Shown in pieces: positions 9,201-63,394 of a stretch of DNA of 64,000 bases. Made by a program: the position numbers and the translations under genes. Numbering within the stretch: the stretch's first letter is position 1; each line of letters opens with the position of its first letter. Source of the stretch: Antedon mediterranea (Eukaryota > Animalia > Echinodermata); contig NC_092679.1 of NCBI RefSeq assembly GCF_964355755.1, positions 6,788,201 to 6,852,200 of the forward strand, in the 5' to 3' direction. The notes beneath the pieces are model-generated. The model was not told the DNA's origin, did no database searches, and saw only the letters and a list, made by a program, of their open reading frames with translations.

Positions 9201-12200
9201 GCCATATTTTGGACGGCGCCCTCAATATTTCGTTTGCCATGCGAAACAGATTTTTACTGGCTTACGAAAAACGAATACGTGTGCGTGACGTATCCGTTTT
9301 CGTTATCGTATTCGTAAGATTGCGAAAACTCCCTATTATCTTCGATAAAACTTGTTTTTATATTTAATCAAAGTTGATTATAGCTTTCTAGTACAAGCAA
9401 AATGTTACCAACAATTTTACAGCCTTTTTGAAAGCTGAAAGTGACTTTTTGTAGCTATTCAATGAGTTATGTAATTTCACCACTATGTTTTTTATTGTTT
9501 AAAAAGTAATAAAAATTAAGGAAACAAAATACTGTAAAACAAGGAAATAACTAGATATATACTTTCTGAACTGTGTTATGTACTTTACAAGGTCGAAGTG
9601 GTAAAATTGCATTTAACCAAAATAAACGCTATTATCTATACATTAAATATTATTTTGAAAAATGATAACGAACAATAACAGTAATGTTTACCTTGGCAAC
9701 CTTATGGTTACTATGGTCAACTGCTCCCTTGCAGGTCATTATTCCCATCTGTAAGCCATCTCTGACCTCTTCTAAGTACTCCTGACCAGGTAAAGCAACC
9801 TTCTTCAAGCAGGCTAGTAACTGGATTGCCTAGTATACAGAAAGCATTTTTTATTGTGTACAATATCTGCATATAGTCCTGGGTAAACTTGGGGAGAGTA
9901 TAAAAAGGTCCTCCACTTTTCAGTAGAACCCCTTATAAGGGGACAACTTCGGGACCCACAAATTGTGTTTCTTGAATAATGGTTGGCCAAACTGTTAAAG
10001 CATATAATACCTCTCAATCAGAAAATCATTTCACATGAAAATGTTCTTTTAATGTGGTGTCACTTGAAATGGGGTTGACCATTGTGTTCAAATATATACA
10101 GTATTACCCTCATTTACTGTATATCACAGGTGTGTCCTTTGAAATAAGTGTGTCCCTTGAATAGGAGTGTCTCTAGATAGGTGTGTCCCTTGAATAGGAG
10201 TGTCTCTAGATAGGTGTGTCCCTTGAAATAGGAGTGTCTCTAGATAGGTGTGTCCCTTGAATAGGAGTGTCTCTAGATAGGTGTGTCCCTTGAATAGGAG
10301 TGTCTCTAGATAGGTGTGTCCCTTGAATAGGAGTGTCTCTAGATAGGTGTGTCCCTTGAATAGGAGTGTCTCTAGATAGGTGTGTCCCTTGAATAGGAGT
10401 GTCTCTAGATAGGTGTGTCCCTTGAAATAGGAGTGTCTCTAGATAGGTGTGTCCCTTGAATAGGTCTGTCTCTTAAATAGGTGTGTCCCTGAATAGGTAT
10501 ATTCCTTGAATATGTGTGTCCTATGAATAGGTGTGTCCCATGAAAAGATGTGTCTCTTGAATAGGTGTGTCTCTTGAATAGGTATGTCTCTTGAATAGGT
10601 ATGTCTCTTGAATAGGTATGTCCCTTGAATAGGTGTTTCCCTTGAATAGGTGTGTCTCTTAAATAGGTGTGTCCCTGAATAGGTATATCCCTTGAATAGG
10701 TGAGTCCCATGAATAGGTGTCTGTCCCTGAATAGGTATATCCCTTAAACAAGTGTGTCCCTTGAATAGGTGTGTTCCTTGAATAGGTGTATACCTTGAAT
10801 AGGTGTGTCCCATGAATAGGTGCGTCTCTTAAATAGGTGCGTCTCTTAAATAGGTGCGTCTCTTAAATAGGTGTATCCCTGAATAGGTGTATCCCTGAAT
10901 AGGTGTGTCCCATGAATAGGTGTGTCCCATGAATAGGTGTGTCTCTTAAATAGGTGTGTCCCTGAATAGGTGTATCCCTGAATAAGTGTATCCCTGAATA
11001 GGTGTGTCCCATGAATAGGTATGTCCCATGAATAGGTGTGTCCCATGAATAGGTGTGTCCCATGAATAGGTGTGTCCCATGAATAGGTGTATCCCTTGAA
11101 TAGGTGTGTCCCATGAATAGTTGTGTCTCTTAAATAGGTGTATCCCTGAATAGGTGTGTCTCATGAATAGGTGTATCCCTGAATAGGTGTATCCCTTGAA
11201 TAGGTGTATCCCTTGAATAAGCATGTTCATTGAATAGGTGTATCCCTTGAATAGGCGTGTACCATGATTAGGTGTATCCATTGAATAGATGTATCCCTTG
11301 TATAGGGGTGTGTCACTTGAATAGGGGTGTGTCCCTTGAATATGGATGTGTCCCTTAAATAGGGATGTGTCCCTTAAATAGGTGTGTCCTTTGAAATAAG
11401 GGTGTGTCCCTTGAATAGGTGTGTCCATTGAATAGGGCTGTCCTACTGTAAGCAGGGCTTAAGAGTCCTCACCTCGGAATGAGTAAGCTCAACAACAACA
11501 AAGTCATCAGTCTTGCTGACTGGCGCTTGCAAAGCCGAATCAAGTAGAAGAACTCCGCTGATGTCTTTACGCAGGCCAACAACGCAGTCTGACTTGAAGA
11601 GCACTTGCTCTACCTCATTTAAGTACTTGCACTCTACAGATGATCCTGGATCAGCTGTAACACAAAATTTAATGTTGTCAACATTTTCTTTTACTACAGT
11701 TACTGCAGTACCTATATTTTGTTTACTGTTTATTCAATTATTTAGTGTTTTTTGAGATAATCATATATTTCTGAGACTGCCTCATGTCTTATAAAACTAA
11801 AATTGCAAAAAAAAGAAATAGAGTTGCTGCAGTAAAATAATTTTGGATTGACATAATCCCTTATAACAGTATCACTGCTAAAATATATAGTATACTACAC
11901 GCACATACTGGAAACTTTCCCTACAACTGTTTGCATACAATAAAATAGGTACAAATACTATGTTGGTCAGTTGTTTGTTACTCTTTGTTGTCCAGTGTAA
12001 ATCAACATTAAAAATAGTAATCTTTGACAAATGGAACTCTTTGACTAATTTATGTGAGCTGTTAATGAATGTTATAGCACAATCAAGTGTACATCCTTGT
12101 CATTTGATTGGTTGATTGTGTATTTAGTGTATATACAATATTTTCTACCATTTCAACAATGTAGTTCTGCCACTGCCAGTCGAGTAGGTCTTTGTATGAT

Positions 12201-36516: not shown

Positions 36517-38406
36517 TTTCCAAACAATGGTCAGTGTCCAAACATTTTATTTATCTATAAAAAAAAAATATATATATAGAAAACTAGGCCCATCATTCGA
36601 CGGTGGAATAATTTTGGGTGGCGAACGAGGTACAACAAATTAAAACCTTAGCCGAGTCCATGTCCTCCTGTAAACTGGGTTGTAAAGAAAATACATGTTA
36701 ATTCATGTACAGTTCCGTACAATATATAGGCCTAGGCCATTTGCGTTAAATGTAGGTGTTCGCAGACAGTTTTACACCGTAATAAAACCCCGAAACATTG
36801 ATGTGTTTAATAATTGAAGTAATGAGACAATCTCAACCTTTTTGGAATCACATGGTGTAGGCCTATCGCAAACCTAACTTTATTAGGGTACAATAAACCC
36901 CATTACGGTGTATATTAAGTAGTACCGTACTCAATTCAATCAGTTTTTTTGATCGTGTCCAAATTAAGAATTAAACTCACGAGGATGTATAGGCCGGTCT
37001 TGTTGAATAGACAAACGTTCCACGAGGTTTTTGAAACTAAAAAGTAAGACTAATGACTTACTAGTAAGATGATGTAGAATGTATAGACCTACATTGATAG
37101 ACAAACATTACCGGAGATATAATCCGTATACTTAATGTACTGTTAGTCATAATGTGGTATGTTGTATCCGTGTAGACACGGTACCATTGAGATGTTGTAA
37201 AATCGTTCACATGGTAACGTTTCAAATAAATACTTAGCCAGGGGTAAAGTGCGGATCATGGGTCGTAAAACACGCTCCAGAAATTGCTAAGTACCGGTAC
37301 GAACAAAGAGTGAATACAGAATCGGAACAGCATAGTACCCCCGCTGAGATATTGTTTGACGTAATAAAAAGTTAAGGCAACTATATTAAACAAACATAAT
37401 AATTATATTGATAAGAGCTGCCAATCACAGATTATTCCAACCTCCGCCAGAAGTGGGAGAAAATTAAAGATCAAAAATTGTGATGAAGATCCCCTTTTAT
37501 AGTTTTGACTATGACCATTGACATAAAGTTAGTAAAATTAAAAAAAAGTGGTCCAGAATTGGCCCGATCCTGGTTTAGATTTCTTCCAAAATATTATGAA
37601 GTCATCCGTGACCACACATCTATCTATGGTTTAAATTTGATAAAGATCCGTCTTTTAGTTTTGACATATTATCCTGCTAACAGGCAAACAATAATTAAAA
37701 TGGAGGTGGTCAACCACACAATAATTATGTCCTCTGAAACAGTGCGATAGATTTATAGTTTATTATTCATGAAGAAACATAACATTATTTATTTCTTCAT
37801 GGTATTAAAGACTGTTACTTTGATCACGGAAGTACAGAATAATATAATATTTTATATCTCTGCTTTGATTGGCCATAAAATAATAAGTATGTAAATTTAT
37901 TCCTCCATGATTTGACCAATCATAAGCGACTTCTTAATAATCCAAGACTATACTTGTGTTATGTATTCCTGCGACAGCTCTTGATTTTTCCTGTTTCATC
38001 ACCATTTTAATTTGATTGCAATTTCAATTATAAGCAGTTCTTTTGCTTGCTTCAAACTGATTTTATCTTCTTCTTAATTGCCTACAACACATTTGTTGCC
38101 AAAACAATTAGGCTAACTTCATTTGTTTTACTCAACGTTACGTCATCAATGTCTTTAAAGAGGTAATTGCTTGCTTATAATTACCAAACACTATTGTTCA
38201 CATTGCATAATCACTGAAACCTCAAATTAACTTCGTTATTCTAACTCGTTACTATAGTTTCTCCAGTCTTATAAATTAAACAACTTGAGGAACGGTGCAA
38301 CATTTCTCTATTTACTAAGTCATGTGCCATAGGGTTAACTGTGAACGGCAGTTGATCGGTTGACTTGAAAACAGAAATATATACAGTCCAATCGTACAAC
38401 ATTGAA

Positions 38407-39717
38407 ATGAATTCTGAAGAAATGTTTAACGAAACTGAGACGAGTACGCCAAAGGACACGCATGTTGTACTTATAATCAGTCTGTGGATGATGGCATTAA
38501 TAACGATTTGTGGAAATATTCTTGTGATTGTTGCATGGTGTTTCGACAAGAAAATTAACTACAAACCAGCAAATGTGTTCATTTTGAATCTGTCGATTGC
38601 CGATTTGTTGATTGGACTAATAGTTATGCCTCTAAACATCCTCTTCCTTCAGTATGGCTATTGGGCAACTGGAAGATTCGCTTGCAAGGTTTGGTTGATG
38701 GCAGATTATATATCCAGTCACCAAGGGTTCTTACTTATTGTATTCATTAGTTTGGATCGGTATTGGCTCATCAAAAAAGGTCAAAAGTATAACAGTTTTC
38801 AAACCCATCGCAGAACACAGGTAATGTGTATACTTGGTTGGCTATCAATAATTGCGTTTTATTCCTTGACGGTCTTTGTGTTGTCAGAGGTTAGTACGAA
38901 TACTCTCGCAATTATTCACACATATAAATGCGATTGGAAAACGTCACAGAACGCCTCGATTACGGTAGTGATTGCTATCATATTGTACACACCGTTGGTG
39001 TTTTTGATTTACTTTAACAGTGTTGTATACATTTACATTAAGAAACGTAAATCACGTGGCGTACACGTACGGAATTCAATGATACAAAAAGATTGCAAAG
39101 TCAAAGGCAACCAGTCTAAAGGATTAAAAGGAAGCATGTTGTTAAGCAGCAACAGCAAAAAGAATACACCTACAAGAAAAACCTCCAGAATGGTCGACAG
39201 TCACCGCCCCCAAGAACCTATCACCAATCCACGAAAAAATGACACCATTCAGCAACACGATTTGAAAGTAGAATCGTGTAATGGAACCCATGTAAATACA
39301 TCTACAACCAACACTTGTAGTCAGAATATCAATCCGTTACAACAAAATGGTGACGAACGCAAGTCAATCAAATCAGAGACTTGTAATAGAAATAACGCAT
39401 CTACATCCACATCCAGAATGCAAGGCACTCATCAGCAAGTCCGTTCGAGTCCGAATGCGTTTGTAATGTTAACGAGTTTGGTGTTCGTATTCTGCGTTTG
39501 CTGGTTGCCATTCACGGCTGTGATCACTCTACAGAGCATCTATGGTTGGGGCTGGGTTAGTGATCTAATATGGCAGATAGTTAACATTCTGCTCTGGTCA
39601 AACTCCTTCCTAAATCCATTCCTATACGCATCTAGAAATCCACATTTCAAAAAACATTTTACAAAGTTGTTTTGCCGTCTGAACAGATTTAATAGACTAA
39701 ATGTAGCGGCACAGTAA
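38407..39717 (+). CDS. Intronless class A GPCR of the aminergic type (histamine H3/muscarinic-like)
   Basis: GNILVI (TM1), NLSIAD (TM2), CKVWLMADY with Asp3.32, SLDRY, long third intracellular loop, CWLPF (TM6), NSFLNPFLY (TM7); first ATG at 38407. Confidence 0.92.
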   Translation: MNSEEMFNETETSTPKDTHVVLIISLWMMALITICGNILVIVAWCFDKKINYKPANVFILNLSIADLLIGLIVMPLNILFLQYGYWATGRFACKVWLMADYISSHQGFLLIVFISLDRYWLIKKGQKYNSFQTHRRTQVMCILGWLSIIAFYSLTVFVLSEVSTNTLAIIHTYKCDWKTSQNASITVVIAIILYTPLVFLIYFNSVVYIYIKKRKSRGVHVRNSMIQKDCKVKGNQSKGLKGSMLLSSNSKKNTPTRKTSRMVDSHRPQEPITNPRKNDTIQQHDLKVESCNGTHVNTSTTNTCSQNINPLQQNGDERKSIKSETCNRNNASTSTSRMQGTHQQVRSSPNAFVMLTSLVFVFCVCWLPFTAVITLQSIYGWGWVSDLIWQIVNILLWSNSFLNPFLYASRNPHFKKHFTKLFCRLNRFNRLNVAAQ

Positions 39718-42578: not shown

Positions 42579-45500
42579 TTACTTGTATTGTGGTAACAGT
42601 GTCTTTGCTTCTGTTCTTGCCGTAATCTCCTGAAATATAAATAAATAGAAACAAAAACGTATTGTTATCTTCCTAAAATGTACATTATGCAGTAGAGCCC
42701 GTATCAAATGGACACCTTAGGACACTGTGTTTGTTTCACACGGGAAAATTTCCACTTTATATTTTTTCTGTAACAGGGGGTTTCTACTTTTATAAGCTTT
42801 GCTTTTGAGATTCCCCCTTTCCATTCTTTTCTATCTTTGTACTTGTATCATTATTGTAACATTATACTTTTGGCACTTTTGGCCTTTCATACGTCACACG
42901 TGCAGTTGACACAAATGGAGCTTACCAAATAAATATTCATCTCGTTTGCCAGTAGTTACATGTCATTTTGTCTTATTTTTTACTTAATTACACAAGAAAG
43001 AAAAAAAAAATTTATAACAGTGTCCAAAACGCAGGGTTTTCTTCTGTAACAGATTTTGTTTTTAATATAGGGAGAACATTAAAATAATGTTCAGATTTCT
43101 GGGCTTTTAAGAAAATAACAGAGTAAAATCAAAAGTGTTTTTTTAATAATTACATGACTACTCACATCAGCTGTTTCTCCACCAATTGACACAGCTTTTT
43201 CCAACCAACCAGCCACCTTGGTGTATTCTCTCTTCTGAATATAACACTAAAAAAGGGGATTATAAATATATATTACTTTACTATATAAAATAAATGATGA
43301 GATAAATGTCGTTTTGAAAAAGGAAGAGTTGGAGTGGTGGCCAACATAGATCAGTCAATTCATTAAATTATCTTTTAGGTGATTTCCAATTAAATCATTC
43401 TCTAATTAAAACCATATTTTTCAGTTTAAATAAAGACATCACAGCTATCTAATTTAATTAGTTGTAACATGGAGAATCTCTCCACGGTTGTAACGAGGAT
43501 TACATCATGAAATTTTAATTGTTTCCGAACCTTTGCAATCATCAGAGAATTTGCATTATAGAAATCAGGTTCAATTTCCTCTGCTTTTAGAAAGTTTGAC
43601 AGTGCCTCATCAATGGTGGATTCTGGTAGTGAACCGTAAATAGCCTGAGCCGCTCTCTTCTCCCACCAGCTAAGCATTGAAACCTGTCAAAATAAACACA
43701 AACTAGTTTGACAAAAAAGGTGTGATGTGCTCATATATAATAGTGAATATTAGTCTATAATTTATTGGCTTTATATATATTTTGCAAAGCACGCTCGTTG
43801 AGCTTGTGCACTCTTTGTATTCATAATCAGTGTACCATGTCCTGCATACCTGGCTCAGCCTATATGTTGTGCCAGTTCTGCGGTACATTTCATTTCGAAA
43901 CCTGAGCTGCACTGACGAGATCTAATAAGATCGAAACAGTACTGTCTGCAGATTGGATATATATATATATATCTATGAAATGTATTATTTGAAATTTGTA
44001 CTTTTTTTTTTAATACCTTATTCATTTGTTTTATTGTTATTGATTGAAAGAAAGAAAATAAATGTTTACGTTGAATTGAAATATGACATCATGTCCACAT
44101 ATTTTTTTTCACATAAAGTTTGATAGTGTAGACAGAGCTTTATACAGTTTGTTAGTATATTCCATCACTCATCGGATAAGGAAATAAAACTGGAGGTCCA
44201 AATGTACACATCTGGCTTGTGTGGAAAAGTAGGGGATACTGGTACATGCAGCCTCTGTCGTTGTGTACAGACGTGTTGACATTATGGTAAATGAAAAATT
44301 ACCTCAAAGCACCATCTTCCATAAAAATTATACAAGTAAGCTTCGGCGGGTCTTAATTCAATGGCTTTTAATATATGTTCCTGAAAAAAAGAGTTAAACA
44401 AAAGAAAATATATATTTGTTACTCACAACTATCTATTTGTAAATGGTGTTGGCAATATATCTTCACCTAGCTGGTTGTAAAAAAACATAATTTATCGATG
44501 TCAATTAAAACAATCCTACATCAGTAAATTCTGATTAGATAGAATGTGAGCTGAATTGGTCTCTCAGTATGTTCATTCAATAAGGAAATGTTTGCAAAAA
44601 AACAAAAGATTGTTTTGATCATTTACATATTCCAACAAACCAACAAATACCTCTCTATCATCACAATTATTATTTAATTGTTACTTATTGTACATAGGCA
44701 GATCCAAGAGGAGGGACATTCAATCAATAGACATGACACTAACAGTAGGTTCGGCATTTTACAGTTGCTAGGCCCTGAGCTTCCTATCTCAAAATCCAGG
44801 ATTCGCCACTGACTCACCTTAAACAAGAAACCATTTGATATTTTCTGAGCTGTCGGCTCATATTCTGCTAAACTCCCTATCAACAAAGCAAACCACTTGT
44901 GGGCATCAGCACTCTCATTGTCAAAAGTCAATGCCTTTTTAGCAATTTCTGAACCTGAAAAAAAATGTTTCATGTGTTACTGTATGATGTATATATTTCT
45001 CAAAATACATAATGATTTTCTGAACATTTACTAGTACTACCCAAAGCTATGTCTACACTATCAAACTAGTTTGACAAAATAAGTGTTATGTGTTCAAATA
45101 CGGTAGTGATATGGTCAAATATGGTAGTGATATGACATCATCATGTCCACATATGGGCGAATCACATTTTTTTGTCACATAAAATTTGATAGTGTAGACA
45201 AGGTTTTACACATTTAATGGAAAATGCCTCCAATTCATATCTTGACTGAGGGGTACTTGTTCAGTACATTGTGCATGTATAATTTTGAAATGAATTGAAG
45301 GCATTTTTCCCTTCCATCAGGTGTGGGCATGGTATTATTTTCTCTATAGTTATTAGAAACAAATACTGTACTAAAATAATAAAAATAGTTAAATAAAATG
45401 AAAAATGTCTACATTGCAATAATTATGTTTGGTAACATTATCAAGTATTTTATTTAAACTTACACAAAATATACATTTAAATAAAAGAATATCCAATAAT

Positions 45501-47035
45501 TAATGTTTTGTTTATTTTATCCCCCTAATTTGTTAATTTTTTTTTAGAATAAAAAAAAAACATTTAAAATTAAATAATTACTGTACCTTCATACAGTAAT
45601 CGTTTTTGTTCTATAGATTCCCCATGCTTTGACTTAATACCGCTATATAACATATGAGATTTTGCTAGTCGCCATAGAACCTGAGCATTTCTTGAATACT
45701 GAAAACAGAAAGCAGAACAAGTTAAAAAATATAAACGGGCTGAATCGTCGTGGGCCAAATTGTCTCAGAGCTGAATCGTCCTGGGCCAAATTGTCTCAGG
45801 GCAGAATCATCCTGGGCCAAATTGTCTCATGGCTGAATCGTTCTGGGCCGAATTGTCTCAGGGCTGAATTGTCCTGGGCCGAATATTCCTGGGCCAAATT
45901 GTACTGAGCCGAATTGTCCTGGGCCGAATTGTCTCAGGGCTGAATTGTCCTGGGCCGAATTGTCTTGAGCTGAATCGTCCCTCTACCTAGCTTCAGTTAC
46001 CGTACCTTTTCTCTACTTTCTATTAATAGATCATATGCACTGATGACATCATCCTCGGAGCCTTTGAAGAGTTTATCCACTTCTTTAAGATGTTCACTTA
46101 ATTCTTCATCATCCACTTGGTATTCTGGTGCATCTTTGTACAACAAGGATTCTGGCGCTGTTGTAAATCTTTTTGGGAACAAAACGATCATTTTTTTAAG
46201 TATAAAAATTATAACCAAAACAATCATATCAGTACTTTAAGTAATTCCATTTGCAATTAAATTATTTATTACTTCCAATTTTAGTATAAAAAATGAGTTT
46301 ATTAAAAAAAAAATCTAAATATTTATTGTTCTCTAATTAATCATTTTTTCTTCATTTACGCAATGATGGTGAGTAAATGCTATATCGCATCAGGATCTGA
46401 TCAGGATTATTTTAGTTTAAAATAATATAATACTTTTTGGTATTATGAAAAAATTCAAATGATCTATTGTGCGTTGTTTAGAGATGCAGTGCATGGGGTT
46501 TATTATTGAAACTTACTTATTCCTCACCACTCATTGATAGGCATAAGATAGTTGTAGGCCTAGCTAGTATAAATACAAACACGTGATGATGAATTGCATG
46601 GTCCCTAGAATAGGCCTAAAATAGTATATTTTATTTATTTATTATTATTATGTTAGTACTAGTAGGCCTATTTAATAATATATTATTATTAAAAATTAAA
46701 CAAAATATGCCCATTTAATGATTAAATACTAACACTTCATAGGCTTCTTCAAATTCGTCATCTTCATCACCACTACTCGGATGAATGCTGTAATATGAAC
46801 CGGCCTTTCTTACGCCTCTGGATCGAATCGACGCGGAATCAGTGGACTCTGATAAAACGCTTTTCAGCTTGTCAAGTTCATCGCGAATTTCTCCTACCAA
46901 GTCAGAAAGCTTGCCTAGCTCTCGAGATGTTCTATTAAAAATACGCTCTAAAATAATTGCACCACCTGCGCCGATGACTATACCGATACCTAATGAAGCT
47001 AATAATTCGTGTATACGATTATTAATATTAGCCAT
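42579..47035 (-). CDS. RMDN3: Regulator of microtubule dynamics family protein (RMDN2/RMDN3=PTPIP51-like), 358 aa. Exons 46734-47035, 46006-46168, 45587-45698, 44818-44954, 44303-44380, 43531-43683, 43166-43246, 42579-42629
   Basis: Phase-consistent GT-AG exons. N-terminal TM helix plus coiled coil, acidic FFAT-like segment, TPR region with VLWRLAK, SADAHKWFA, GRWCFEVSMLSWWEKRAAQAIYGSLP. The symbol RMDN3 rather than RMDN2 rests on adjacency to GCHFR. Confidence 0.92.
43901..43956 (+). ncRNA. Type I hammerhead ribozyme in a ~200-bp retrozyme-like monomer (~43760-43972)
   Basis: Stem I CTGCA/TGCAG, core CTGACGA, stem II GATCT-AATA-AGATC, GAAA, palindromic stem III ACAGTACTGT, cleavage triplet GTC (43944-43946). 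Confidence 0.85.
45737..45980. repeat. Minisatellite (GGGCCGAATTGTCCT/GGGCTGAATCGTCCT, 15-16-bp units) in an RMDN intron
   Basis: Tandem array directly visible. Confidence 0.9.
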
Positions 47036-47508
47036 TTTATTATAAACTGTAACTGTAAGTTTTTAACCAGAGGCCTAAATGTGGTGCTGCTTACTGATTA
47101 AAAACATAATGGTCAAAGGTTAACTTAACTTTTGTATAACGCAGTTAATATAAAAAGTGGAACTAGCGGTTTGTATAAAAGTCGAATATTAATACATAAA
47201 ATGTTCGATTTACTGCAATAAAATCACAATGATATTCAAATAGGTAATAGAAAAGTACCATAATATTTATTATATATTGAGGAGGAACGATCCCGACGAC
47301 AAGCGTGTTACGCTAAAAAATAAAAGTTCTATAGGGTGTACTTGTTGTAGAGAAAAAGAAAGAGCTGAGGAGACAAGATCGGGACAGTTCGCCAATCCCG
47401 GAAACTATGATATGTTGACGAATCGAAAAATAAGATGATGCGTGTGTGTGTCGATCGTGTGTGTACAATCTCGGTCTCAATTAGATTAAACTCGATTTAA
47501 ATAGAAAT

Positions 47509-49799
47509 ATGCCTTATGTGTTAATAAGTACGCAGATACGATTGGTAAGTAAACATATTTTGTTTTAATATTAATAATAACAGTTGCTGTTGTTAACACT
47601 AGGCAAGCCGCATGTAGGTGTGTATGCTAGGCCTGTCGTCGTAGGAAACATTGACGATGTCACTGACATCGATGGGTGATGTTGTTAATGTTAGAGTTTT
47701 GTATGCTCTACAGTCGTTTCGTCCCAGTTTTTGTATAAACCTATAGAGCAGTACAGGGATTTTTTCCCAAAAATGGCCAAGTAGGCCCAACTGTACTTTC
47801 CTGGAATAATATTTAGAATTTTTAATGTGCAAAAATGCTGTAATGTGTAATAGATACGTGAATAAATTTGAAAACATAAATTAAATAAACAAACAAATAC
47901 AATCAATAATAAGTAATACGGCGTAATTAATATTATATTATAATGAAAATATAAATTTTGACAACAATACAAATCACTATTGAATATTATACTATTGTTG
48001 ATAAACAAACAATGAAATAAATGAATGTGTTTTTTTATTTATCATTTATAAATAAAAAAAGACAAACAATAAATTAATGTTAAAAAATAGGAATGTGGTC
48101 CAACGATCTGTGGCGATGAGTCATCGGATCCTGAATTAATGGCTGAACTAGGAGCTGTTCTCACTAAACAAGTTGGAAACAACTTGTAAGTACTATCTCT
48201 ATTTTCTTACCATCGTTATACACATTTTGATTGGCTAAATCTCTGTCTACTACACTATCACACTAGTTTGACAAAAAAAGTGTGATGTGCCCAAATAAAA
48301 TATGGTAGTGATATGACATCATGTCCATACAGTACTGTATAGAATAGGCACATAACATTTTTTTGCCATAAAGTTTGATATAAATAAGTGTAGGCAGCGC
48401 TCAACTGTACATTCTCACGAAGGGCACCACATTTCACTATTCCCTTTTTATATCGCTGTTTACTGTATTGGGCTCACCTCCATGTGAACACGTATGAAGA
48501 CCAAAATCTAACTGGTTACTGGCTTAGTACACACTGTACCAAACATGGATTCATTTATTCATTAGTGAACATGCCATATCCATTTATTTATAACATATGC
48601 ATAATAGTACAATTATACATAGAAAAAAAATGAAAATAATGCCTCAAATTTTGTGTGGTTTAGTATAGCAGCCATTTTTAGACAAGTGAATAGAGTTGTT
48701 TCAATGCAATGCATGCAGTTTTAATCAAATGGTTTCTGTCATTAGTTGAACCAAATTAAGACCTTCAGTTTCTTTCATTGTAATTTTAGTTTCTCAAAGA
48801 AATCTGATCAAAAAGTGTACTTAGTTGTATGTATAAACAAGTATACTATAGTTATTACATAATAAATATGTGAATGCTGAAAAGTATAATTATACATTAT
48901 GTTTTGGATAAAATTGAAAAAATTCATCTACTTCCCAAAATATTTTTGAAATAAAATTTTTGTTACTATGCCATGATCAGTGTCGGCAAATCAAGCCGAC
49001 ACCACTACTTTGAAAAAGTGCGATGCTAACGCACGAAACGTTGGTAAGTTCAACGTTTATCTTCACCTTCACTAAAAACGAAAATTTTATTTCAAAAATT
49101 TCATTATGTTTTGGTTTATTTGTAATTTTTAATTTAACTGCTCAAAAGATGTCACTTGTAACCTGGTACAGTAATTTATTTCTGTTGATCGTGAACATTT
49201 TATTTATTTAATATTTATTTTATAAGCGTTTGCTTACAGTATCTTAGTATTTCACTACTAAATGATGAAACACTACAGCATGCAGCATTAAAATACTGGT
49301 ACCATCATGTTTCATTACAATTTATGATGTACGATAATTGACATTTATGTACAGTTTCGTTTAGAATTGCTCGAAGTCTGTATTTATTGTCTTATTTATG
49401 TTTTTCCAAATGTTAATTGATTTTTAACATTGTTATATTAAACTATATACCAATATTATATTTTTTGCTTTGAAATTTGAATTGTTGTGGAAGATATAGA
49501 AAGGGAAATGATGATTTAAGGTTTACAAAATAATAGCAACAAAATGATGGCAACAAGATATGGTCAGCAAGATGATGGGGAAGATTGAAGATTTTCAATT
49601 CTCTCGTTGATGAAGAATAATAATCCTTTTCTCATATTCCCACAGCCACGAATTTCGTTCACCAGAAACGCCACGTGAGGTTCTTGACCGCTTGGAAAAG
49701 CGCGGCTACAAAGTTGTGGGAATGACTGGTATAGGTCAAACATGTATATGGACGCTTCATTGCCCACTAATGCAGAACTGTATTGATAATAATAACTAA
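47509..49799 (+). CDS. GCHFR: GTP cyclohydrolase I feedback regulatory protein (GFRP), isoform a, 94 aa; exons 47509-47544, 48091-48185, 49646-49799
   Basis: Spliced product MPYVLISTQIRL|ECGPTICGDESSDPELMAELGAVLTKQVGNNF|HEFRSPETPREVLDRLEKRGYKVVGMTGIGQTCIWTLH.. matches the GFRP family; canonical splice sites; AATAAA at 49829 and 49849. Confidence 0.95.
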
Positions 49800-52279
49800 T
49801 AGTAATATTTGTATACAGGCCTACTGTAAATAAAAAATTCACATGTACAATAAAGTAACAAAAGTATCCCCCCCCCCCCCCGCCCCATTTCTGCTAAGAT
49901 ATTAACAATGTCAAGCAGTGGCATAATGGCAATGAGCACTCACTGGCTAAATTCAGGGGGCCCTGAGCTTTGCCCAAAGGAAAAGACAAGCCTCCAGAAT
50001 TGGAACTTGGAGGGCCACTTACTGTAGGTTTTTTAAACCAGGCGCATCAAACACAACTCATAAAGCTGTTCAGTGCAATATCAAATATACAGTACTTGTC
50101 TCATTGAGTCTGGTAGAAATTACCAATTACCAAATGTTGAAAATGAACAAGCTTTTGCATGAGAGGCCAATTTAAACAGACGAGCAGCAACGGTAAGTGG
50201 AAAACCGCGTACCTTGTCCCAAGTAGAATTTGTATCTATCCTGAGCTGAAACCGCCAGTCTGCTCTGCGTTGTGTGTGAATGGTCATAAGGAATAACATA
50301 GATTCTATATTTTTATTACCGTTACTGGTCGTATGTGTAAATTGGCCCTTAGTTTGTACACTACCAGTACCTTTAGTTACATTTATTTACATGTGAATCA
50401 AGGTTAATAGTTTCCAGTATTTATTGTGTGGGTTCTGTATGTCTGAAAATTTACATATTATATATACTATTTATATTTAGTGAGTTTAAATGCAGTATAA
50501 TAAATAAATAAATAAATAATTATTTGTATCAAATTGACAACAATTAGGTTTTTATTTTTTTTAATAGGCCTACATGGAAATAAACCAACGCATTTTGAAT
50601 GAAAATACATCAGAAAATTAGCCATGTAGTATTTAATATTGAATTATAAGATAATTGTATTGAATGATTGTGTGGGAAAGTACTGTATAGCCACATAGTA
50701 CAGTACAGTTTTTTAAACCTTCATAAAAAAAACTGAATGTGAACAAATTAAAAATTATTATTGTATGAAAGAAGTTGAAAAGTAGACACAATCATGATTA
50801 TTGGCATTAATATCACTAATTTGAATCATTTTTTCTATGTTTGTTTTAATTGTTACATAAATATAATTGTGCTATTGTTAAAAGGTTGTATTAAAACCAA
50901 ATTTAAGATATTTTGAGAGCTATTTATTCAAAATATTGGTGTGATTGTGAAAAATATTTAACTGATAATTTAAGTTTCCTTAAAATTTAACTATTGAGCA
51001 GTAAAGCTAGGTTCCCAATTGGATGCAACGCAACGGCACACATACGCACAACGTAAAGCTTGGTTCTAACTAGAGACGGAACGCAATGACGTAGACGCAA
51101 CGCAAGCAAGTTGACCAATGACCAGAAAACCATGGAAAACTTTGGTCCCGCCGAAAATCAGTTCAGAGTGAAGCATGGAAAGTCCGATCCCGTGATTGGA
51201 CATTTGTATGCACTTCATGTTCATACATGCGCTCGTACCCACAAACAAAAGGATGTATGCTACGTAGACGCATTGAGTTGACCAATCATAGACGATACAT
51301 TGCGTCGTGATTGGTAGAGTAGCTATAGATAGCTAGATTGTATACCGTGGATACAATTTCTTTTGTCCATGCTTATAATATGTTTGTGAAATTAAATGGA
51401 AAGTTATCAATTTACGTTACAATTCTCATTTATTTAATACAGTTTAAATGCACTTTGCATATTATATCTAGCTCACAACAGAACTGATATAAAATACAAT
51501 GCATGGGGGATATTTATGTTGGTAAGTTTTACTATGGAAAATACCACGAAGATAATTGGACCAGTATGTTTGACATGGTGTCGGCCTTTTATTATTTAAC
51601 GATGGTGGTGGTGTATATATTTTGTTAAGGGTTGTTTGTTTCACGAGCACTTTTCATTTAAACCTATTCACTGATCGTATTGTTTATTTGTTGACATCAA
51701 TTATAATTGTATTATATATTGTGTGTAATTTTGTTTTTATTTTGTGTATAAAATAATGTATTATTGTGGGAAACTGACTTTTACTAATACAAAAGGGCAT
51801 AGGAATCGGGCTCGGTTGGGAACTGTAGGACTTGTCTGTAATTATGTCAGATTGCTGCTTATATAATCTATCGTATGTTGTTATTGTGGTATTTTATATA
51901 AGTACAGTAGTATTCAATCTGTACTTACCGGTAGGCTACTCCGTAATTCATGGTATATCGGGATATTAATCCGCACAGAGTTATAGTTACCGTATATGAT
52001 TGTTTTCCTCCACACGTCGCATGTACCTCATTTTGTCATCACAGTCCCTGTCTGTTCATTTGTTTATACCAAGATACCCTGTCTTCTTTCCAAATATACA
52101 ACAAGTCCAGTGCTTATATAGCTCCTAATTTAATTCGTGAACATTTAGAATATCGCATTGGTTGATGCTTGGTTACTTTCCTATAGATAAATACATCGAA
52201 AGAATAAAAAAAAACAAAAAAAAACGCAAGAATATTTGCATTCATTTTTTTAATTATATAAATAATTTTTTTTTTGCAG

Positions 52280-52439
52280 TAAAGAGTATCGATCACAAGA
52301 AACAGCAAGGAACATTTTGAACCGTCTGGAATTGTTAGGCTATACAATGGTGTCGTCTGCTGGAATTGGCCAAACAATGATATGGACTTTCTTCAGGAAG
52401 CACCGAGAACCAAAACAGAACATGGATTGGTTTGCCTAA
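52280..52439 (+). CDS. GCHFR: GFRP alternative last exon 3b (isoform b, 96 aa)
   Basis: Strong acceptor (T)nGCAG, same phase 2 as exon 3a; encodes KEYRSQETARNILNRLELLGYTMVSSAGIGQTMIWTFFRKHREPKQNMDWFA*; AATAAA at ~52677. Confidence 0.85.
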
Positions 52440-52869
52440 CTTATGTTGTTACAGCGATAAACATTAGTATGGATTTTCTAATGTTACTTCAATATAGAGG
52501 ACTTAATACGCACGCATCGCTACAAGTACTACTACAGTACTACTTTAAACAGTGATAGAAAATGTTATAAACTTAATTATACGCCTATATCACACATCTG
52601 TTTTTTATGCGCATGCTTTATGATATGATCAATATCGTTAATTTGTCATTTAAATAATGTATAGTGTAAAAATGTTAATAAAACATGAGGATTAAATGCT
52701 CATTCAAAATAATTACATTGTCCCAAACAGTTTGTAATTGCGTAACACGTACACAAATAGCGTTTCTCACGCTGACACATTTAAATTTCCAGCCACAAGT
52801 AAAGAAATGTATTTTGTAAGATATAAGAATATCCGCTCCGCCTCGCACCAGCACTCACATTCTTCTAAC

Positions 52870-53141
52870 ATCTCTACACATCATGAATGTGTCACAGAGG
52901 GTGCAGTACCAGGTAGGCTGCCTAGCTTTTAAAGCTATGAACAATATTGCCCCTCGATACATCACCCAACGATTTTCCACTGTTCCGATACGCTCTATGA
53001 TGAGGACTAGGGCTGCTTCTAGGGGCGACTTACTGGTACTCAAAGTCAAATTGGAATGTTTCCGGCGCTCTTTTATTTATTCTGCTAGTATTTTATATAA
53101 TTTATTACCTTCTGTTTTAAAAGAATGTACCAATATTAACT
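52870..53141 (+). pseudogene. Old L2/CR1-type LINE ORF2 C-terminal fragment, left half; right half and 3' tail at 58045-58270
   Basis: ..FKAMNNIAPRYI..RRSFIYSASILYNLLPSVLKECTNIN continues after the younger LINE as SFKFNLKKHILS*, then a 3'UTR and an (AAAT)n tail. Confidence 0.85.
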
Positions 53142-53684
53142 TAACTTAATGATATGCTGTGATTCAACGAGAGTAGACGTGTTTGAAGGAGCTCTCGCTA
53201 GCCATACTAGCCAAACCGGCGTTTCAACTAACTGTAACACACCAAGCTGAACATACTTCATATTTCCCGCTGCAGATCAAATCACAGCGGCACACCTTAA
53301 GCCTAGACTCTGACTTTTTTTTTTTTCTTGGATCAATTTCGTACGGATTACCTATCAATAATCATCATTACTTTACACAGTTGAATTTATTTGTGCGTTT
53401 ACATGGACTATATACCAACACTTTGCCGAGGAAAGTAAGCTATCGCTAGCCAAGCTAAACCAGCGATTAAAACACGCCAAGCTGAACAACTCATATTTCC
53501 CGCTGAGGGTAAGCTCATAACGGCACAACTTAAACATACCTCTGTCTATTTAGTATAATCTAGAACGGATTACCCATTAATAATCATCATTGATTTACAC
53601 AGTTGAATTTGTGTGTAGTTATTATGGACAATACCCCCATTTTACTGAGGAATGTTTCATAAAATAGTGAATGGTCTATAGCAG

Positions 53685-54527
53685 ATGGCTATTAACAATT
53701 GGAATACCCAAGACTACTATAAAATGATTGTCAGTATAATTATAAATACCATTGTTCTCGTACCAATTGCATTCAAGCTACTTATTATAGCCGGCGATAT
53801 AGAAACAAATCCGGGTCCTATAGAAACCAGACAAACAACAATTAAAGAATCAATGGGAATGGAACCTTCATTGAAAGATGTTTTGAAACAACTTAACGAT
53901 ATGAATACAGTTTTAAACGATAAAATGGATAGGATAGCTTCTGATTTCGCTTCAATTAAAGGAGATATGTCGAAAGGATTTGACAGGCTAACTAAAAAAA
54001 TAACTGATTTGGAAGAAGAAAATATAAGACTAAAAAACACAAACAAAGTTATAACTACACAACTAGATAAACTAGAAGCTGAAAGTCGTCGTAATAACAT
54101 CATTATTTATGATATCCCTGAAGATGATAGAAATGAAACGTGGCTTGACTGCGAACGAAAGGTAAAGGATTATATAACAACAAATTTAGAAATCGAAGAG
54201 GTCGCTTTCGAGAGAGCGCATAGATTGCACAGCAAAAGTAACCCACGACCAATCATAGCAAAACTTACTAGCTACAAACAAAAAGATGAAATAATGTCCA
54301 AAAATAGAGCACTCAAAAGAAAAATGACTGGAAATAAATCAAAAATTAACATGGGTGAAGATTATACTTTCAGAGTTCGTAAAATTAGAAAAGGCCTACA
54401 ACCAAGGATACAACAAGCAATCAAAAACAACGATCGTTTTCGGCTCAGATATGATAAGCTGTTTATAGGCGACGAAGTATATACATTCAACGTAGAAGAC
54501 AACAAAATCATAAACCTCACAAAATAG
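53685..54527 (+). CDS. LINE ORF1p: hydrophobic leader, 2A-like peptide, coiled coil and L1-type RRM/CTD
   Basis: GDIETNPGP at 53793-53819; heptad region; SRRNNIIIYDIPE, FERAHRL, PRPIIAKL motifs. Confidence 0.9.
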   Translation: MAINNWNTQDYYKMIVSIIINTIVLVPIAFKLLIIAGDIETNPGPIETRQTTIKESMGMEPSLKDVLKQLNDMNTVLNDKMDRIASDFASIKGDMSKGFDRLTKKITDLEEENIRLKNTNKVITTQLDKLEAESRRNNIIIYDIPEDDRNETWLDCERKVKDYITTNLEIEEVAFERAHRLHSKSNPRPIIAKLTSYKQKDEIMSKNRALKRKMTGNKSKINMGEDYTFRVRKIRKGLQPRIQQAIKNNDRFRLRYDKLFIGDEVYTFNVEDNKIINLTK

Positions 54528-57500
54528 GGTTTTGGCCGTGGTCCTAATGAAGAACAATCTGAACCATCTTTGAAAGTCACTAAACACATTGATTGTATTT
54601 CTTGGAATATTAATGGTATTAATAACAAATTCGCTGATTCTGACTTTATTGAGTATGTTAACAAATTTGACATAATTTGTTTTAGTGAAACATGGGATAA
54701 ATATCGGAACGATTACAATATTAAAGGTTTTACTTGCATATCAAAATTACCAGATAAAACAAGTCGACATTGAAGAAATAGTGGAGGCGTAATGGTATAT
54801 TATAAATTAAATCTCGTCGTTGAAGAACTGCCAAGTGCATCGAATAACATTATTTGGTTAAGGATTACTCTATCCCCAACCGACACTGTTGTAATCGGTT
54901 TTTTGTATAGACCACCAAGTACATCCAGTTACGCGACAACTGACTTTTTTGACATTTTATCTAACGAATATTTGCATTACAGCTCCCAAATATCAGACAT
55001 AGTATATGTAGTTGGCGACTTTAATGGTAGAACTGGTTCGGAGGACGATTACATATCTGCTGACGAAAATGACACATGGAACAATAATCTTTTTCTGGAA
55101 GACAACATCCGGATTGAAAGTAGAACGAATTCTGATTGTATACTAAATTGCTACGGTAAAGATATATTAGAATTTTGCAAAGAAACTGGTATGCGAATCA
55201 CAAATGGTAGAATTGATAAAGAATCATCCAGTGGTTTTACATTTATCAGTTCACATGGTAAAAGTGTATGTGATTACCTTCTTACTAACTCAAACAACTT
55301 TAAACTAATATCTTATTTAAGAATTGATGACCGTGTTGAATCGGATCATATGCCAATTGCCTTTAGTATTCAATTCAAAGACAAAGAACACACCAAAATG
55401 ATTGTCAATGAAGATGACACGTTTACCCAGAGTACGTTCAAATGGTCCAACAGTTACATTAATGCATCCAAAGTCAGATGGGAACATGATATCATTGAAA
55501 CTATTGATAATGATTTTATGAATGCTATCTCTCAAAATAAAATTGATGAGGCAGTTTCACATTTATGTAAAATTTTTGAATACGTATGTAAAGGAATTAA
55601 GTATACACAAACAAGTAAATCTTCAACTTCTACAAAACGAAACGAATGGTTTGATAAAGATTGTAAGAACCTTAAAATGCAGGTTAAACAATCATTAAAG
55701 AGATTTAGAATTATGCGCACTCAACCTTTTTTAAATAATTATATTCAGATAAAAAAGCAATATAAATCGCTATTAAAATGCAAAAAAAATAACTTTCATA
55801 AAAGAATACGCAAACAAATTATCGATTCACTCAATACAAAGGATAGCAAAACGTTTTGGATGAAGTTGAAGACAAAACAGAAATTATCTTGCGAACTTTC
55901 TATTAATCAATGTTATATTCATTTTAAGAACCTATTTAAAAACGATGAGTCTATTGGTAGCGCTGAGTTGCCAAAAATCACAGAATGCCAACAGAATGAA
56001 GACGATGATTATTTAGACCACGACATAACGTTGGATGAAATAAAAAAAGCATTTAATTCTCAAAATAGTGGAAAAGCTCCCGGCATTGATGGAATGAATT
56101 TTGAATTTTTGCTAAACGCCCCCAACATTATTTTTGATATTTTAAAAATTCTTTTTAACGCCATATTTTTAGTTGAAAAATTTCCCAAACAATGGGCAAC
56201 AAGCTTAATCGTTCCAATTTTTAAAAATGGAGATAAAAACAAACCTGAAAATTATAGAGGTATTTCTTTAATTCCAATCCTAGGAAAAATATTTTTAAAT
56301 ATTCTTAATTCTAGGTTAACACAATTTACAAATAGTAAAAAGTTAATTCATGAGGAACAAGCAGGCTTTCGTAAGGGATATAGAACGACAGATAATATAT
56401 TCATTTTAGATACCCTCATCTCTAAATACTTAGATAAAAAGCGGGGTAGGATTTTTGTTTGTTTTGTTGATCTTAAACGTGCCTTTGACTCTATAAATCA
56501 TACACTTTTACTACATAAGTTGAAATGTATCGGTGTTTCAGGCAGAATGTTACACATAATAAATTCCTTATACCAAAACTTATCTGCTCATGTTAAAATT
56601 GGCAACAAACTTAGTCCATCTTTTAATTGTTCGATTGGAGTACAACAAGGTTCTCCGTTGTCGTCTTTACTCTTTAATATTTACATTAATGATTTGAGTG
56701 GTATACTTAATCAGGTAAACGATTTCATTCAAATTGGAGATTGTCATATGAATCATCTTCTTTATGCAGATGACTTAGTGCTTGTTAGTGATACGGTGAA
56801 AGGTCTCCAAAAATTAATAAATAAACTTGAACTTTATTGTGATACTTGGAAACTTACTGTAAACACTACAAAATCCAAAATTATGGTTTTTAAAAATGGC
56901 CGCAATTTAAGGAACATTGAAAAATGGAAGTATAAAAATATTCAATTAAAAATTGTTAATTCGTATAATTATCTTGGTGTTATTTTTAGTTCAAATGGTG
57001 CATGGAACAACTCAATGCAACATAATCAACAAAAAGCAAATCAAAGTTTATTCTGCTTAAAATCATTCATTTATCGTAACTTATCTTTTCTTCCAATTAA
57101 TACATGGAACCATATCTTTGATGTGAAAATACTTCCTATTTTAACGTATGGAAGCGAAATCTGGGGAATGTCAGATAGCACAAACATTATAGAAAAAACA
57201 CATACTAAATTTTGTAGATATTTATTGCAAGTTGGAAAAAATGCACCAAATGCCGCGGTTACTTCTGAGTTAGGTAGATTACCACTTTCTGTGGATTGTT
57301 TAGTTACAGTTATAAGATTTTGGTTACACATTATTACTTTAGATCATGACAGATTCATTTTTAAGTGTTATGAGTTTCAACTTAGAAAAGTTAACCGTAA
57401 TGAGAATTGTTGGGCACAACAGGTTAAACACTTACTCTTTTCTACTGGTTTTGGTTATATATGGTTACAACAATATGTTAATAGTAAAGGTTTATTTTTG

Positions 57501-57959
57501 AGAGAATTTAAGTTGCGCTTATGTGATATTGAAAAACAAAAATGCATTCAAAAATTTAGTTTACATAATAAGTTAAGGCTCTTTTCTCTTTATAAAAAAG
57601 AAATATGTTTAAGTTATCACTTGACCAACATCATTAATTTTAAACAAAGAAGATTATTAACTAAGTTACGTTTAGGGATATTAGAGCTAGAAATTGAAAA
57701 GGGCAGATGGGAGGGTGTAGAAAGATATAAGAGAACGTGTAAATTATGTAAAAAGAACATTGTTGAGGATGAATATCATTTTATTTTGCAATGCACATTT
57801 TACAATGATTTAAGAAAAAGTTTTATTCCAAGATTTATTCGTGTTTTTCCTTCTATTAATAAGCTTTGTTTATTACTTTCCAACACAAATTTTACTTATA
57901 ATTTAGGAAAATACGTCTACTTTGCTTTTGAAAGAAGAAACCATTATCTTAAGTTATAG
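54528..57959 (+). CDS. LINE ORF2p (APE endonuclease, reverse transcriptase, C-terminal CCHC) with one internal TGA at 54771-54773
   Basis: SWNING, FSETW, GDFNGR, SDHMP (EN); KAPGIDG, QAGFRKG, GVQQGSPLS, YADD (RT); CKLC..EDEYHFILQC. Confidence 0.93.
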
Positions 57960-61858: not shown

Positions 61859-63394
61859 TCAAAGGAGATCTCGACCATTCTTCCATGTCCGATCAATGAC
61901 CTGCATGGGGCTCCGGTCGAGCACCTGTCCCACGGCGACGGCGGTCGCCGCCCACAACAGATGAGGTGCTCCGACTGGGTATCCGGCAGGAGGATAGTCC
62001 GGTCCGTTGGACCCCATCAGCAATCGCCGATCTTCATTGGTAGCGATGAAACGCAGGCCCTTGCGTTGATCGGCCGTAAAGCCAGTCACTCGGCTGGTCA
62101 CGCTAAAGTATGTCCTGGGGAAATGTCGGAGGTAGGCGATTGCTACGGCTTCCGTGGAAGCGTAGTCTGCCAGAAGCAGCCGCTGTTCCTTCAACACACA
62201 ACTCAGACGTAGGATGTCCAAGACGCGATAGTAGCACTCCTCCCCAGTGACATCGCCTTGAACTCCAGAGACTTCAAGACACAGGATGCGGTGGTGGCGG
62301 CCGTCCAAGCAACGACCCAACACCTTCTTTAGCAGCTGATCTTGTCTCGGCCAATCCGTAGGCGGGGCCGAATGGTCCAACCCCACTCTCCCGATTACTC
62401 GAACATCTCGAGTTCGGGCTAAGGCCAGAAGCCTATCGAATTGGACCGTTGTCGGCGAGTAGCCAGGAGCCACTCCCAAGCCCACCGCACAGCCGTTCCT
62501 CGCCAGTCCGCCAATCTCCCGCTCGGTGGGTAAGTGGTTGGATTGACAAACAGGGCAATCCCGCCTACCACTTCCACAGGTTGTGTTCCACTTCTCACCC
62601 GCACCGCTCGCTCCACGTCCCAGAGGTCCCCTCGTCGGGAGAGTTGCAGGTCCCTCTGCAACCGGTCCAGATGGAAACAGGCGTCAAACACTTTGGGCGC
62701 CGAACCAAGCGAGGCCGATGTACCCTGCACAATCGGTGGCGCCGCCACTGATCTACCATCCTTCGGTGCCGGGGCATCGCGCTTGGTCGGTCGCTCTCCA
62801 TGTTCGCCACCTGCCGCTTTCCTCTTCGTCGACTTTTTGGCGGTCTGGTCCACTGCCGGCTCCTCCTCCTCAGCCCGACGACCACACTCCTTCACCAGCT
62901 CTTCACCAAAAGAAGCGATGAGAGCAATCGCACAGCGCCAGTGTATGAGAGCCGACGGGTGTCCTGCCTTTACCAAGGCCCTCCGCTGCCAAGCTGGTGA
63001 GTGCCCGCCACTGCACTCGTGCCCTCCGCCAAGAACTTTGTTCCCGTGGTCGAAAACATGCCGGGGCATGCATCTTCGTGACGTGGACCCGCATGTTGCT
63101 CACTGGACCACATCCCAGATGGCATTTTGGTTTCTGCTTGGCTGGGGTGCTCGCCACCGGGCAAGCCCCTCTCGTATCCCCAGCCACTGCTTGCTCTTTC
63201 GGGGTCATCAGATGGAAGATTGGTTTCCCCTTGGCCGGGGTGGTCGCCGCCGGGCAAGCCCCTCCCGTATCCCCAGCCACCGCTTCCCCTTTCGGGGTCG
63301 GTTCCTCCTGTGCACCCGGACTAGCCAGGAGCACATCTTCCTCCATCTCGGAAATGTCCGTCTCACTTCCGTCAGCGAACGGTAACTGATCCAT
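61859..63394 (-). pseudogene. Extra Gypsy ORF: acidic N-terminus, C2H2-like finger and TatD-like TIM barrel; two frameshifts (~62975, ~62530)
   Basis: CHLGC..HVTKMH; KVFDACFHLD, GLGVAP, VIGRVGLDH, YFSVT, RLLMGSNGPDY and TWKNGRDL align in order with TatD motifs DxHxHL, GxHP, IGExGLD, YISF, RLLxETDxPY and TxxNAxxL. Confidence 0.78.

What the first reader, a model, noticed from the sequence alone, without database searches (positions are those of the whole stretch)
47509..52439. GFRP gene with a duplicated, diverged alternative last exon, predicting two regulators of BH4 synthesis
Seen: one exon 1 and one exon 2 but two homologous terminal exons, 3a (49646-49799) and 3b (52280-52439). Both are phase 2, open, and have strong acceptors and their own AATAAA. 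They align without gaps (HEFRSPETPREVLDRLEKRGYKVVGMTGIGQTCIWTLH vs KEYRSQETARNILNRLELLGYTMVSSAGIGQTMIWTFF) despite heavy nucleotide divergence. I found no second exon 1/2 between them. Established: GFRP forms pentamers that mediate BH4 inhibition and phenylalanine stimulation of GTP cyclohydrolase I, with the GQT loop contacting Phe. Inference: alternative terminal-exon choice swaps half the protein and could give homo- or hetero-pentamers with different regulation. The whole gene is invisible in the ORF track.
Basis: partly seen in the sequence, partly recalled or inferred. Interest (0 to 1): 0.82.

Follow-up and report, generated by a model that had tools for sequence, protein, structure and literature searches.

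The report
Feather-star GFRP with two alternative endings
A feather star's gene for GFRP, the small regulator of tetrahydrobiopterin synthesis, carries two diverged copies of its last exon, and the second copy is seen spliced to the shared exons, so the gene likely makes two versions of the regulator that may be tuned differently; database gene models of another feather star and two acorn worms also pair one shared front half with two different ends.

Summary
Confirmed. One GFRP gene has exon 1, exon 2 and two homologous phase-2 terminal exons, 3a and 3b (21 of 39 residues identical, no similarity left in the flanking introns). A contig from a second sample joins the end of exon 2 directly to 3b, while two DNA runs read on through the intron. 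Both splice products are letter-identical to RefSeq models X1 and X2 of the crinoid Antedon mediterranea, so they are already annotated automatically; I found no paper on them. Orthologues of both exons exist in Anneissia japonica, and two acorn worms also have two exon-3 forms. 3b keeps all 9 near-invariant family residues, but changes faster than 3a (25 versus 36 of 39 identical between crinoids). It is a tandem-duplicated terminal-exon substitution, a known class (77 C-terminal cases in human genes), here new for GFRP. Different regulation and mixed pentamers are untested; a single ancient origin versus repeated duplication is unresolved. I did not test the exon 2-3a junction in reads.

The parts
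47509..47544 (+). GFRP exon 1, coding part (residues 1-12), shared
   Evidence: 12 of 12 residues identical to both RefSeq models
48091..48185 (+). GFRP exon 2 (residues 13-43 plus two bases of codon 44), shared, phase-2 donor; its acceptor is A-rich and lacks a pyrimidine tract
   Evidence: (Pfam GFRP 42.5 bits); its last 30 nt form the loose end joined to 3b
49646..49799 (+). terminal exon 3a, coding part with stop; gives the 94-aa isoform (RefSeq X2), the slowly changing form
   Evidence: junction to exon 2 rests on RefSeq models, not on reads seen here
49829..49854 (+). two AATAAA hexamers (49829, 49849), candidate poly(A) signals of 3a
   Evidence: use not shown
52280..52439 (+). terminal exon 3b, coding part with stop; gives the 96-aa isoform (RefSeq X1), the faster changing form
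   Evidence: spliced to exon 2 in run X1
52440..52613 (+). 3' untranslated part of exon 3b covered by the spliced contig (true end not shown)
   Evidence: record 1 of run X1
52677..52682 (+). AATAAA, candidate poly(A) signal of 3b
   Evidence: use not shown

Best explanation
This is a single crinoid GFRP gene whose last exon exists in two diverged tandem copies; exon 2 is spliced to the far copy 3b and, by database gene models, to the near copy 3a, which likely gives two folded GFRP subunits with the same front half and probably slightly different tuning of GTP cyclohydrolase I. Shown: exon layout, the exon 2-3b junction, conservation of both exons in a second crinoid family, retention of the invariant residues. 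Inferred: the choice is made by competition between splicing to 3a with cleavage at its poly(A) site and skipping on to 3b; the swap replaces helix 53-62 and the hairpin 66-82, which build most of the subunit interface; the forms can co-assemble; the swap adjusts phenylalanine or BH4 sensitivity, or expression through different 3' UTRs, rather than switching function. My odds: two real isoforms 0.95; both act as GCH1 regulators 0.8; measurably different regulation 0.55.
For: Junction: one 514-nt contig (depth 246) of run X1, from a sample and study other than the DNA runs, lies on 52280-52613 with a 180-nt loose end exactly at the 3b acceptor; the 30 letters shown equal 48156-48185, which occur once in the window; 2 of 2 other runs laid (X2, X3) read on through the acceptor. 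RefSeq XP_071961849.1 and XP_071961850.1 equal the two splice products. Anneissia japonica has both forms; 3a groups with 3a (98/99) and 3b with 3b (97/88) in the 29-row tree (97/88 and 92/84 in the 24-row tree). Constraint: pS 0.62 versus pN 0.35 between the exons; all 9 positions conserved in at least 75 of 77 other GFRPs are kept in 3b; 2 of 200,000 random copies with the same 48 changes kept them. Fold: AlphaFold2 model of b, pLDDT 89, matches solved GFRP with TM 0.95, rmsd 1.1 A. Mixed 3a+2b ring scored 0.81 against best control 0.00 (mark reached by 51 of 78 solved and 2 of 108 mismatched pairs; runs agree in at least 97% of contacts, partner pLDDT at least 89), but a like pentamer is solved, so this shows likeness only.
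Against: The junction rests on one contig in one run whose RNA status the tool only guesses; only 30 of the 180 loose letters are shown. The exon 2-3a junction was not tested in reads. The Antedon RefSeq models are automated and probably built on this same assembly, so they are not independent of the window. 3b is much less constrained than 3a (25 versus 36 of 39 residues identical between the two crinoids; exons 1-2 43 of 43), Antedon 3b has two residues seen in 0 of 77 other GFRPs (N55, F81) and Anneissia 3b has D at G64. The 18 differences are not enriched in the predicted interface (11 of 18 versus 25 of 39 positions). Most 3b residues also occur in other GFRPs (e.g. S69-S70 in Nematostella and Corticium), so they need not change function. 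No assay, tissue data or protein evidence.
Confidence: 0.7

Rival explanations
1. The two proteins are functionally equivalent; what selection keeps is two different 3' ends (UTRs, poly(A) sites) that set level, tissue or stage of expression, and the coding differences are tolerated drift.
For: All invariant residues are shared and most differences fall at positions variable across the family; no enrichment at the interface; the exon-2 loop with the GCH1-contacting residue 40 is shared (for the human contact); the UTRs share no similarity.
Against: 3a is nearly frozen between crinoid families while 3b is not, which fits unequal roles; both 3b orthologues lose the common M70 and C77 (56 and 59 of 77 others) and P53 (64 of 77).
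Confidence: 0.2
2. Isoform b is a weakened or dominant-negative subunit that enters the ring and damps regulation, or a copy slowly decaying under relaxed selection.
For: Long 3b branches (0.42 for Antedon 3b versus about 0 for 3a); lower Pfam score (123 versus 136 bits); family-unique N55 and F81; predicted ability to co-assemble.
Against: Open frame, acceptor and 9 of 9 conserved residues kept after flanking introns lost all similarity; spliced contig at depth 246; no difference from the window in the domain-coding part of 3b in 3 of 3 runs laid, the one coding variant lies in the tail at residue 92 (small numbers).
Confidence: 0.08
3. 3b is a pseudo-exon, an assembly artefact, or the end of a separate gene, and the joined contig comes from a retrocopy elsewhere.
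For: The genome outside the window could not be searched; the joined contig is from a run of uncertain type.
Against: No second exon 1/2 in the window; 3a and 3b differ at 48 of 117 nt, far beyond alleles; DNA contigs match the window across 3b with 0 differences in X2; the joined contig matches this locus over 334 nt with 2 differences, both in the UTR; the same pair is modelled in a second species.
Confidence: 0.02

Closest known systems
[quoted passage not shown]
   Same: Both isoforms are full-length family members (123 and 136 bits), colinear with vertebrate GFRP, with the same fold in the model (TM 0.95) and all family-invariant residues.
   Different: The solved rat and human proteins are homopentamers from one sequence (PMC7750480 passages); here nearly half the domain comes in two versions from one gene. 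No second exon-3 form appeared among vertebrate or protostome proteins retrieved (not exhaustive).
Tandem duplicated exon substitutions at the C-terminus (alternative poly(A) class; Gomez et al. PMC8373072, PMC9741552)
   Same: Consecutive homologous exons, used in different transcripts, swapping a homologous C-terminal region while keeping core and ligand residues; 77 of 236 human events are C-terminal, and convergent origins are common (passages).
   Different: The word GCHFR does not occur in the main text of either paper (supplements not read). Here the swap covers a structured half-domain of a ring-forming sensor, not a tail.
RefSeq models XP_071961849.1 / XP_071961850.1 (Antedon mediterranea), XP_033127763-66 (Anneissia japonica), XP_070576966-68 (Ptychodera flava), XP_077999724 / XP_077999731 (Glandiceps talaboti)
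   Same: The Antedon pair is letter-identical to the two splice products; the other three species each have isoforms sharing residues 1-44 with two homologous C-terminal halves.
   Different: They are automated isoform labels with no comment on exon duplication; I saw proteins only, not the genomic layout of the other three species.

Membership tests
GFRP (PF06399) | Score above the Pfam gathering cut-off over the whole domain | tested here: met
   isoform b 123 bits, a 135.7 bits, cut-off 25, model positions 1-82 and 1-81 of 83
GFRP (PF06399) | Family-invariant residues (R54, G72, G74, T76, W79; near-invariant L57, L60, G64, Y65, Q75 in exon 3) | tested here: met
   all present in Antedon 3a and 3b
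GFRP (PF06399) | GFRP fold | tested here: met
   predicted model of b, built with an 81-row family alignment, matches 7ALA/1JG5 at TM 0.95; a prediction, isoform a not folded alone
GFRP (PF06399) | Pentameric ring | tested here: inconclusive
   mixed 3+2 assembly 0.81 versus best control 0.00, but may come from likeness to solved pentamers
GFRP (PF06399) | Binds GCH1 and mediates Phe stimulation and BH4 inhibition | not testable with these tools
   needs an enzyme assay; no crinoid GCH1 was retrieved
Tandem duplicated terminal-exon substitution | Consecutive homologous exons of at least 7 residues in one gene, same phase | tested here: met
   39 aligned residues, both phase 2, no exon 1/2 copy between
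Tandem duplicated terminal-exon substitution | Each exon used in a distinct transcript | tested here: inconclusive
   met for 3b by a spliced contig; for 3a only by RefSeq models in two crinoids
Tandem duplicated terminal-exon substitution | Choice through alternative poly(A) use | tested here: inconclusive
   AATAAA behind each exon, but the hexamer is common here and contigs cannot show ends
Tandem duplicated terminal-exon substitution | Tissue-specific use (typical, not required) | not testable with these tools
   one informative run, contigs only

The most novel reading that the evidence does not exclude
Echinoderms and hemichordates share an ancient (or repeatedly re-evolved) two-ending GFRP in which the exon-3 choice retunes the amino-acid sensor, so that a, b and mixed rings give GTP cyclohydrolase I graded or different responses to phenylalanine and BH4: a natural combinatorial metabolic sensor made from one gene.
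Probability: 0.25. Interest if true: 0.75.

Novelty: new variant of a known kind. Interest (0 to 1): 0.5.

Why it matters
GFRP is studied as a single-sequence homopentamer in mammals. Two natural versions that share the front half and differ in the interface and pocket-flanking half are a ready-made experiment on which residues set Phe and BH4 sensitivity, and on whether mixed rings work. Finding two exon-3 forms in four species of two phyla suggests the duplication is useful, not a one-off. Against that, the splicing class is well known, both isoforms are already in RefSeq, and the functional difference may be small.

Tried and rejected
No whole genome was held, so other GFRP copies elsewhere in the genome were not searched. 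Word-based protein searches with single exons found 0 and 1 hits; only the profile search worked (best 120 of 158 shown). No holder was listed as RNA on record. Metagenome loci: 0 of 18 showed two exon-3 copies, but only 4 of 18 hold more downstream DNA than the 2.6 kb that separates 3a and 3b, so this says little. Dating: trees of 39-40 columns leave deep forks open; a crinoid-only duplication (p-AU 0.18 and 0.14), hemichordate groupings (0.26-0.39) and shared ancient clades (0.29) are all unrejected; the species-specific grouping Antedon 3a+3b was rejected in the 24-row tree (0.012) but not in the 29-row tree (0.17). In the 24-row tree crinoid 3b fell with starfish and sea-urchin sequences (86/88), but this fork vanished with more rows. 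Starfish: Asterias X1 and Patiria X2 differ in exon 3 as much as paralogous exons do (22 of 39), but I retrieved only one isoform per species, so two exons there are untested. Two-stretch proteins P0125 and P0130 are tandem whole-domain fusions, not exon-3 swaps. Enrichment of differences at the interface: not found. The rat complex paper of 2002 that defines the Phe pocket was not held, so the role of Q75, T76 and residue 77 in binding Phe is recalled, not read. Literature searches for a description of this duplication found none (listings only).

Full report
Observation. Exon 2 ends in phase 2, and either exon 3 completes codon 44 as Phe, giving products of 94 and 96 residues. The exons align without gaps over 39 codons (21 residues, 69 of 118 nt identical). 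A six-frame scan of the whole window finds no other copy of exon 1 or 2 and nothing else like exon 3. The introns and UTRs around 3a and 3b share no significant DNA similarity (best E 0.077), so the duplication is old. AATAAA follows each exon, but is listed 17 times in 8 kb and proves little.

Identity. Each exon passes the Pfam GFRP cut-off alone and hits only GFRP chains in the PDB (4 of 177,635 sequences each). A profile search (best 120 of 158 listed) returned two RefSeq proteins named for the feather star Antedon mediterranea, XP_071961849.1 (X1) and XP_071961850.1 (X2), that are letter-identical to exon 1+2+3b and exon 1+2+3a. The window is therefore very likely from this species, and both isoforms are already annotated by an automated pipeline. 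These models probably rest on the same assembly and are not independent proof.

Splicing. Five runs hold the stretch, none on record as RNA. I laid three of the five on 52266-53050. Run X1 (RNA by the tool's guess; another sample and study than X2 and X3) has one 514-nt contig, depth 246, that lies on 52280-52613 and has a 180-nt loose end exactly at the 3b acceptor. The 30 letters shown equal the last 30 nt of exon 2, which occur once in the window; 180 nt would fit exon 2, exon 1 and 49 nt of leader, which is inference. X2 and X3 run on through the acceptor as genomic DNA. So the exon 2-3b junction exists and skips 3a. This is one contig in one run. The exon 2-3a junction was not tested in reads.

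Relatives. Anneissia japonica, of another feather-star family, has both forms: XP_033127763/4 match 3a at 36 of 39 residues, XP_033127765/6 match 3b at 25 of 39, with residues 1-43 identical. Trees of the exon-3 peptides group 3a with 3a and 3b with 3b, so the duplication predates the split of these families. Among 257 proteins held, 14 groups share an identical exon-2 stretch; 3 of the 14 pair it with two divergent but homologous exon-3 peptides inside a named species: the two crinoids, and the acorn worms Ptychodera flava (X1 versus X2, 22 of 39 identical) and Glandiceps talaboti (X1 versus X2, 25 of 39), from two hemichordate families. For these three other species I saw proteins only; that they come from duplicated exons is inferred from the break at residue 44/45. 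Whether crinoid and hemichordate pairs share one origin is unresolved: 39 columns reject no deep grouping. Starfish entries carry isoform labels, but I retrieved one form per species. None of 18 distant metagenome loci shows two copies, though only 4 hold enough downstream DNA.

Selection. Between 3a and 3b, pS is 0.62 and pN 0.35 (dS about 1.3, dN about 0.47; rough, 39 codons). All 9 exon-3 positions conserved in at least 75 of 77 other GFRPs are kept in Antedon 3b; 2 of 200,000 random copies of 3a with the same 48 changes kept them. So 3b is constrained. It is also clearly faster than 3a, has N55 and F81 seen in 0 of 77 others, and in both crinoids departs from the common P53, M70 and C77. 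Most of its residues occur in other GFRPs.

Structure. The AlphaFold2 model of isoform b (pLDDT 89) matches solved GFRP at TM 0.95. Exon 3 supplies strand 46-49, helix 53-62 and the hairpin 66-82. A ring of three a and two b subunits scored 0.81 against best control 0.00 (mark reached by 51 of 78 solved and 2 of 108 mismatched pairs; runs agree in at least 97% of contacts, partner pLDDT at least 89). Because the pentamer is solved, this shows likeness, not binding. 11 of the 18 differences lie in the predicted interface, no more than expected from its size (25 of 39). In the human complex phenylalanine binds a pocket on GFRP near the GCH1 interface, the carbonyl of GFRP L40 bonds GCH1 R235, and GFRP acts mainly as a scaffold that sensitises GCH1 (PMC7750480, passages). 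Position 40 lies in shared exon 2. That Q75, T76 and residue 77 line the Phe pocket is recalled; the source paper was not held.

Mechanism. Most likely the gene chooses between ending at 3a and skipping to 3b, the alternative poly(A) route described for duplicated 3' exons (PMC8373072, passages). Both products likely remain GCH1 regulators, and the swap likely tunes sensitivity, assembly or expression. The main rival is that the proteins are equivalent and only the 3' UTRs matter; a weakened or decaying b form is less likely; a pseudo-exon or separate gene is nearly excluded.

Comparison and novelty. The class is known: 77 of 236 human tandem duplicated exon substitutions are C-terminal, key residues are usually kept, and convergent origins are common (PMC9741552, passages). 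GCHFR is not named in the main text of either catalogue paper (supplements not read). Searches for GFRP with splicing, duplication, crinoid or echinoderm terms listed no paper on this (listings only, open-access library only). PMC4423366 (passages) notes one GFRP orthologue in C. elegans and none in Drosophila; PMC4543619 and PMC7618933 (passages) gave background only. Verdict: real, a new variant of a known kind, interest 0.5.

Noticed in passing
window 44674-47062, minus strand (ATG near 47035): An RMDN-family gene (Pfam RMD1-3 on 44674-44976; that the ORF at 46715-47062 is its first exon is inferred) lies head to head with GFRP, 473 nt between start codons. Goat gene lists give the order DNAJC17, C10H15orf62, GCHFR, RMDN3 (PMC10763158 passages), so this neighbourhood looks very old.
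   Followed up: partly
L001:889-1770, minus strand: In an unnamed ENA contig an intronless GFRP ORF lies tail to tail with a DnaJ+RRM gene, like DNAJC17 beside vertebrate GCHFR; no match to it lies in this window.
   Followed up: partly
window 48066-48090: The acceptor of exon 2 is A-rich with no pyrimidine tract, unlike the strong acceptors of 3a and 3b.
   Followed up: no
window 53682-57959, plus strand: A LINE-like element with an ORF1-like frame and an open 1061-aa endonuclease/reverse transcriptase frame starts 1.2 kb behind exon 3b; a high-copy repeat begins at about 52835.
   Followed up: no
window 38356-39717, plus strand: Intronless rhodopsin-family GPCR frame of 453 aa (Pfam 7tm_1).
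   Followed up: no
window 61859-62683, minus strand: TatD-like frame (28.9 bits, cut-off 27) in a region of long overlapping frames at the window's end, possibly part of a mobile element.
   Followed up: no
P0125, P0130: Gene models of an annelid (Dimorphilus) and a centipede (Strigamia) hold two GFRP domains in tandem; may be fused models of neighbouring paralogues.
   Followed up: no
window 10124-11458: Long tandem repeat that reads as repetitive open frames on the minus strand.
   Followed up: no
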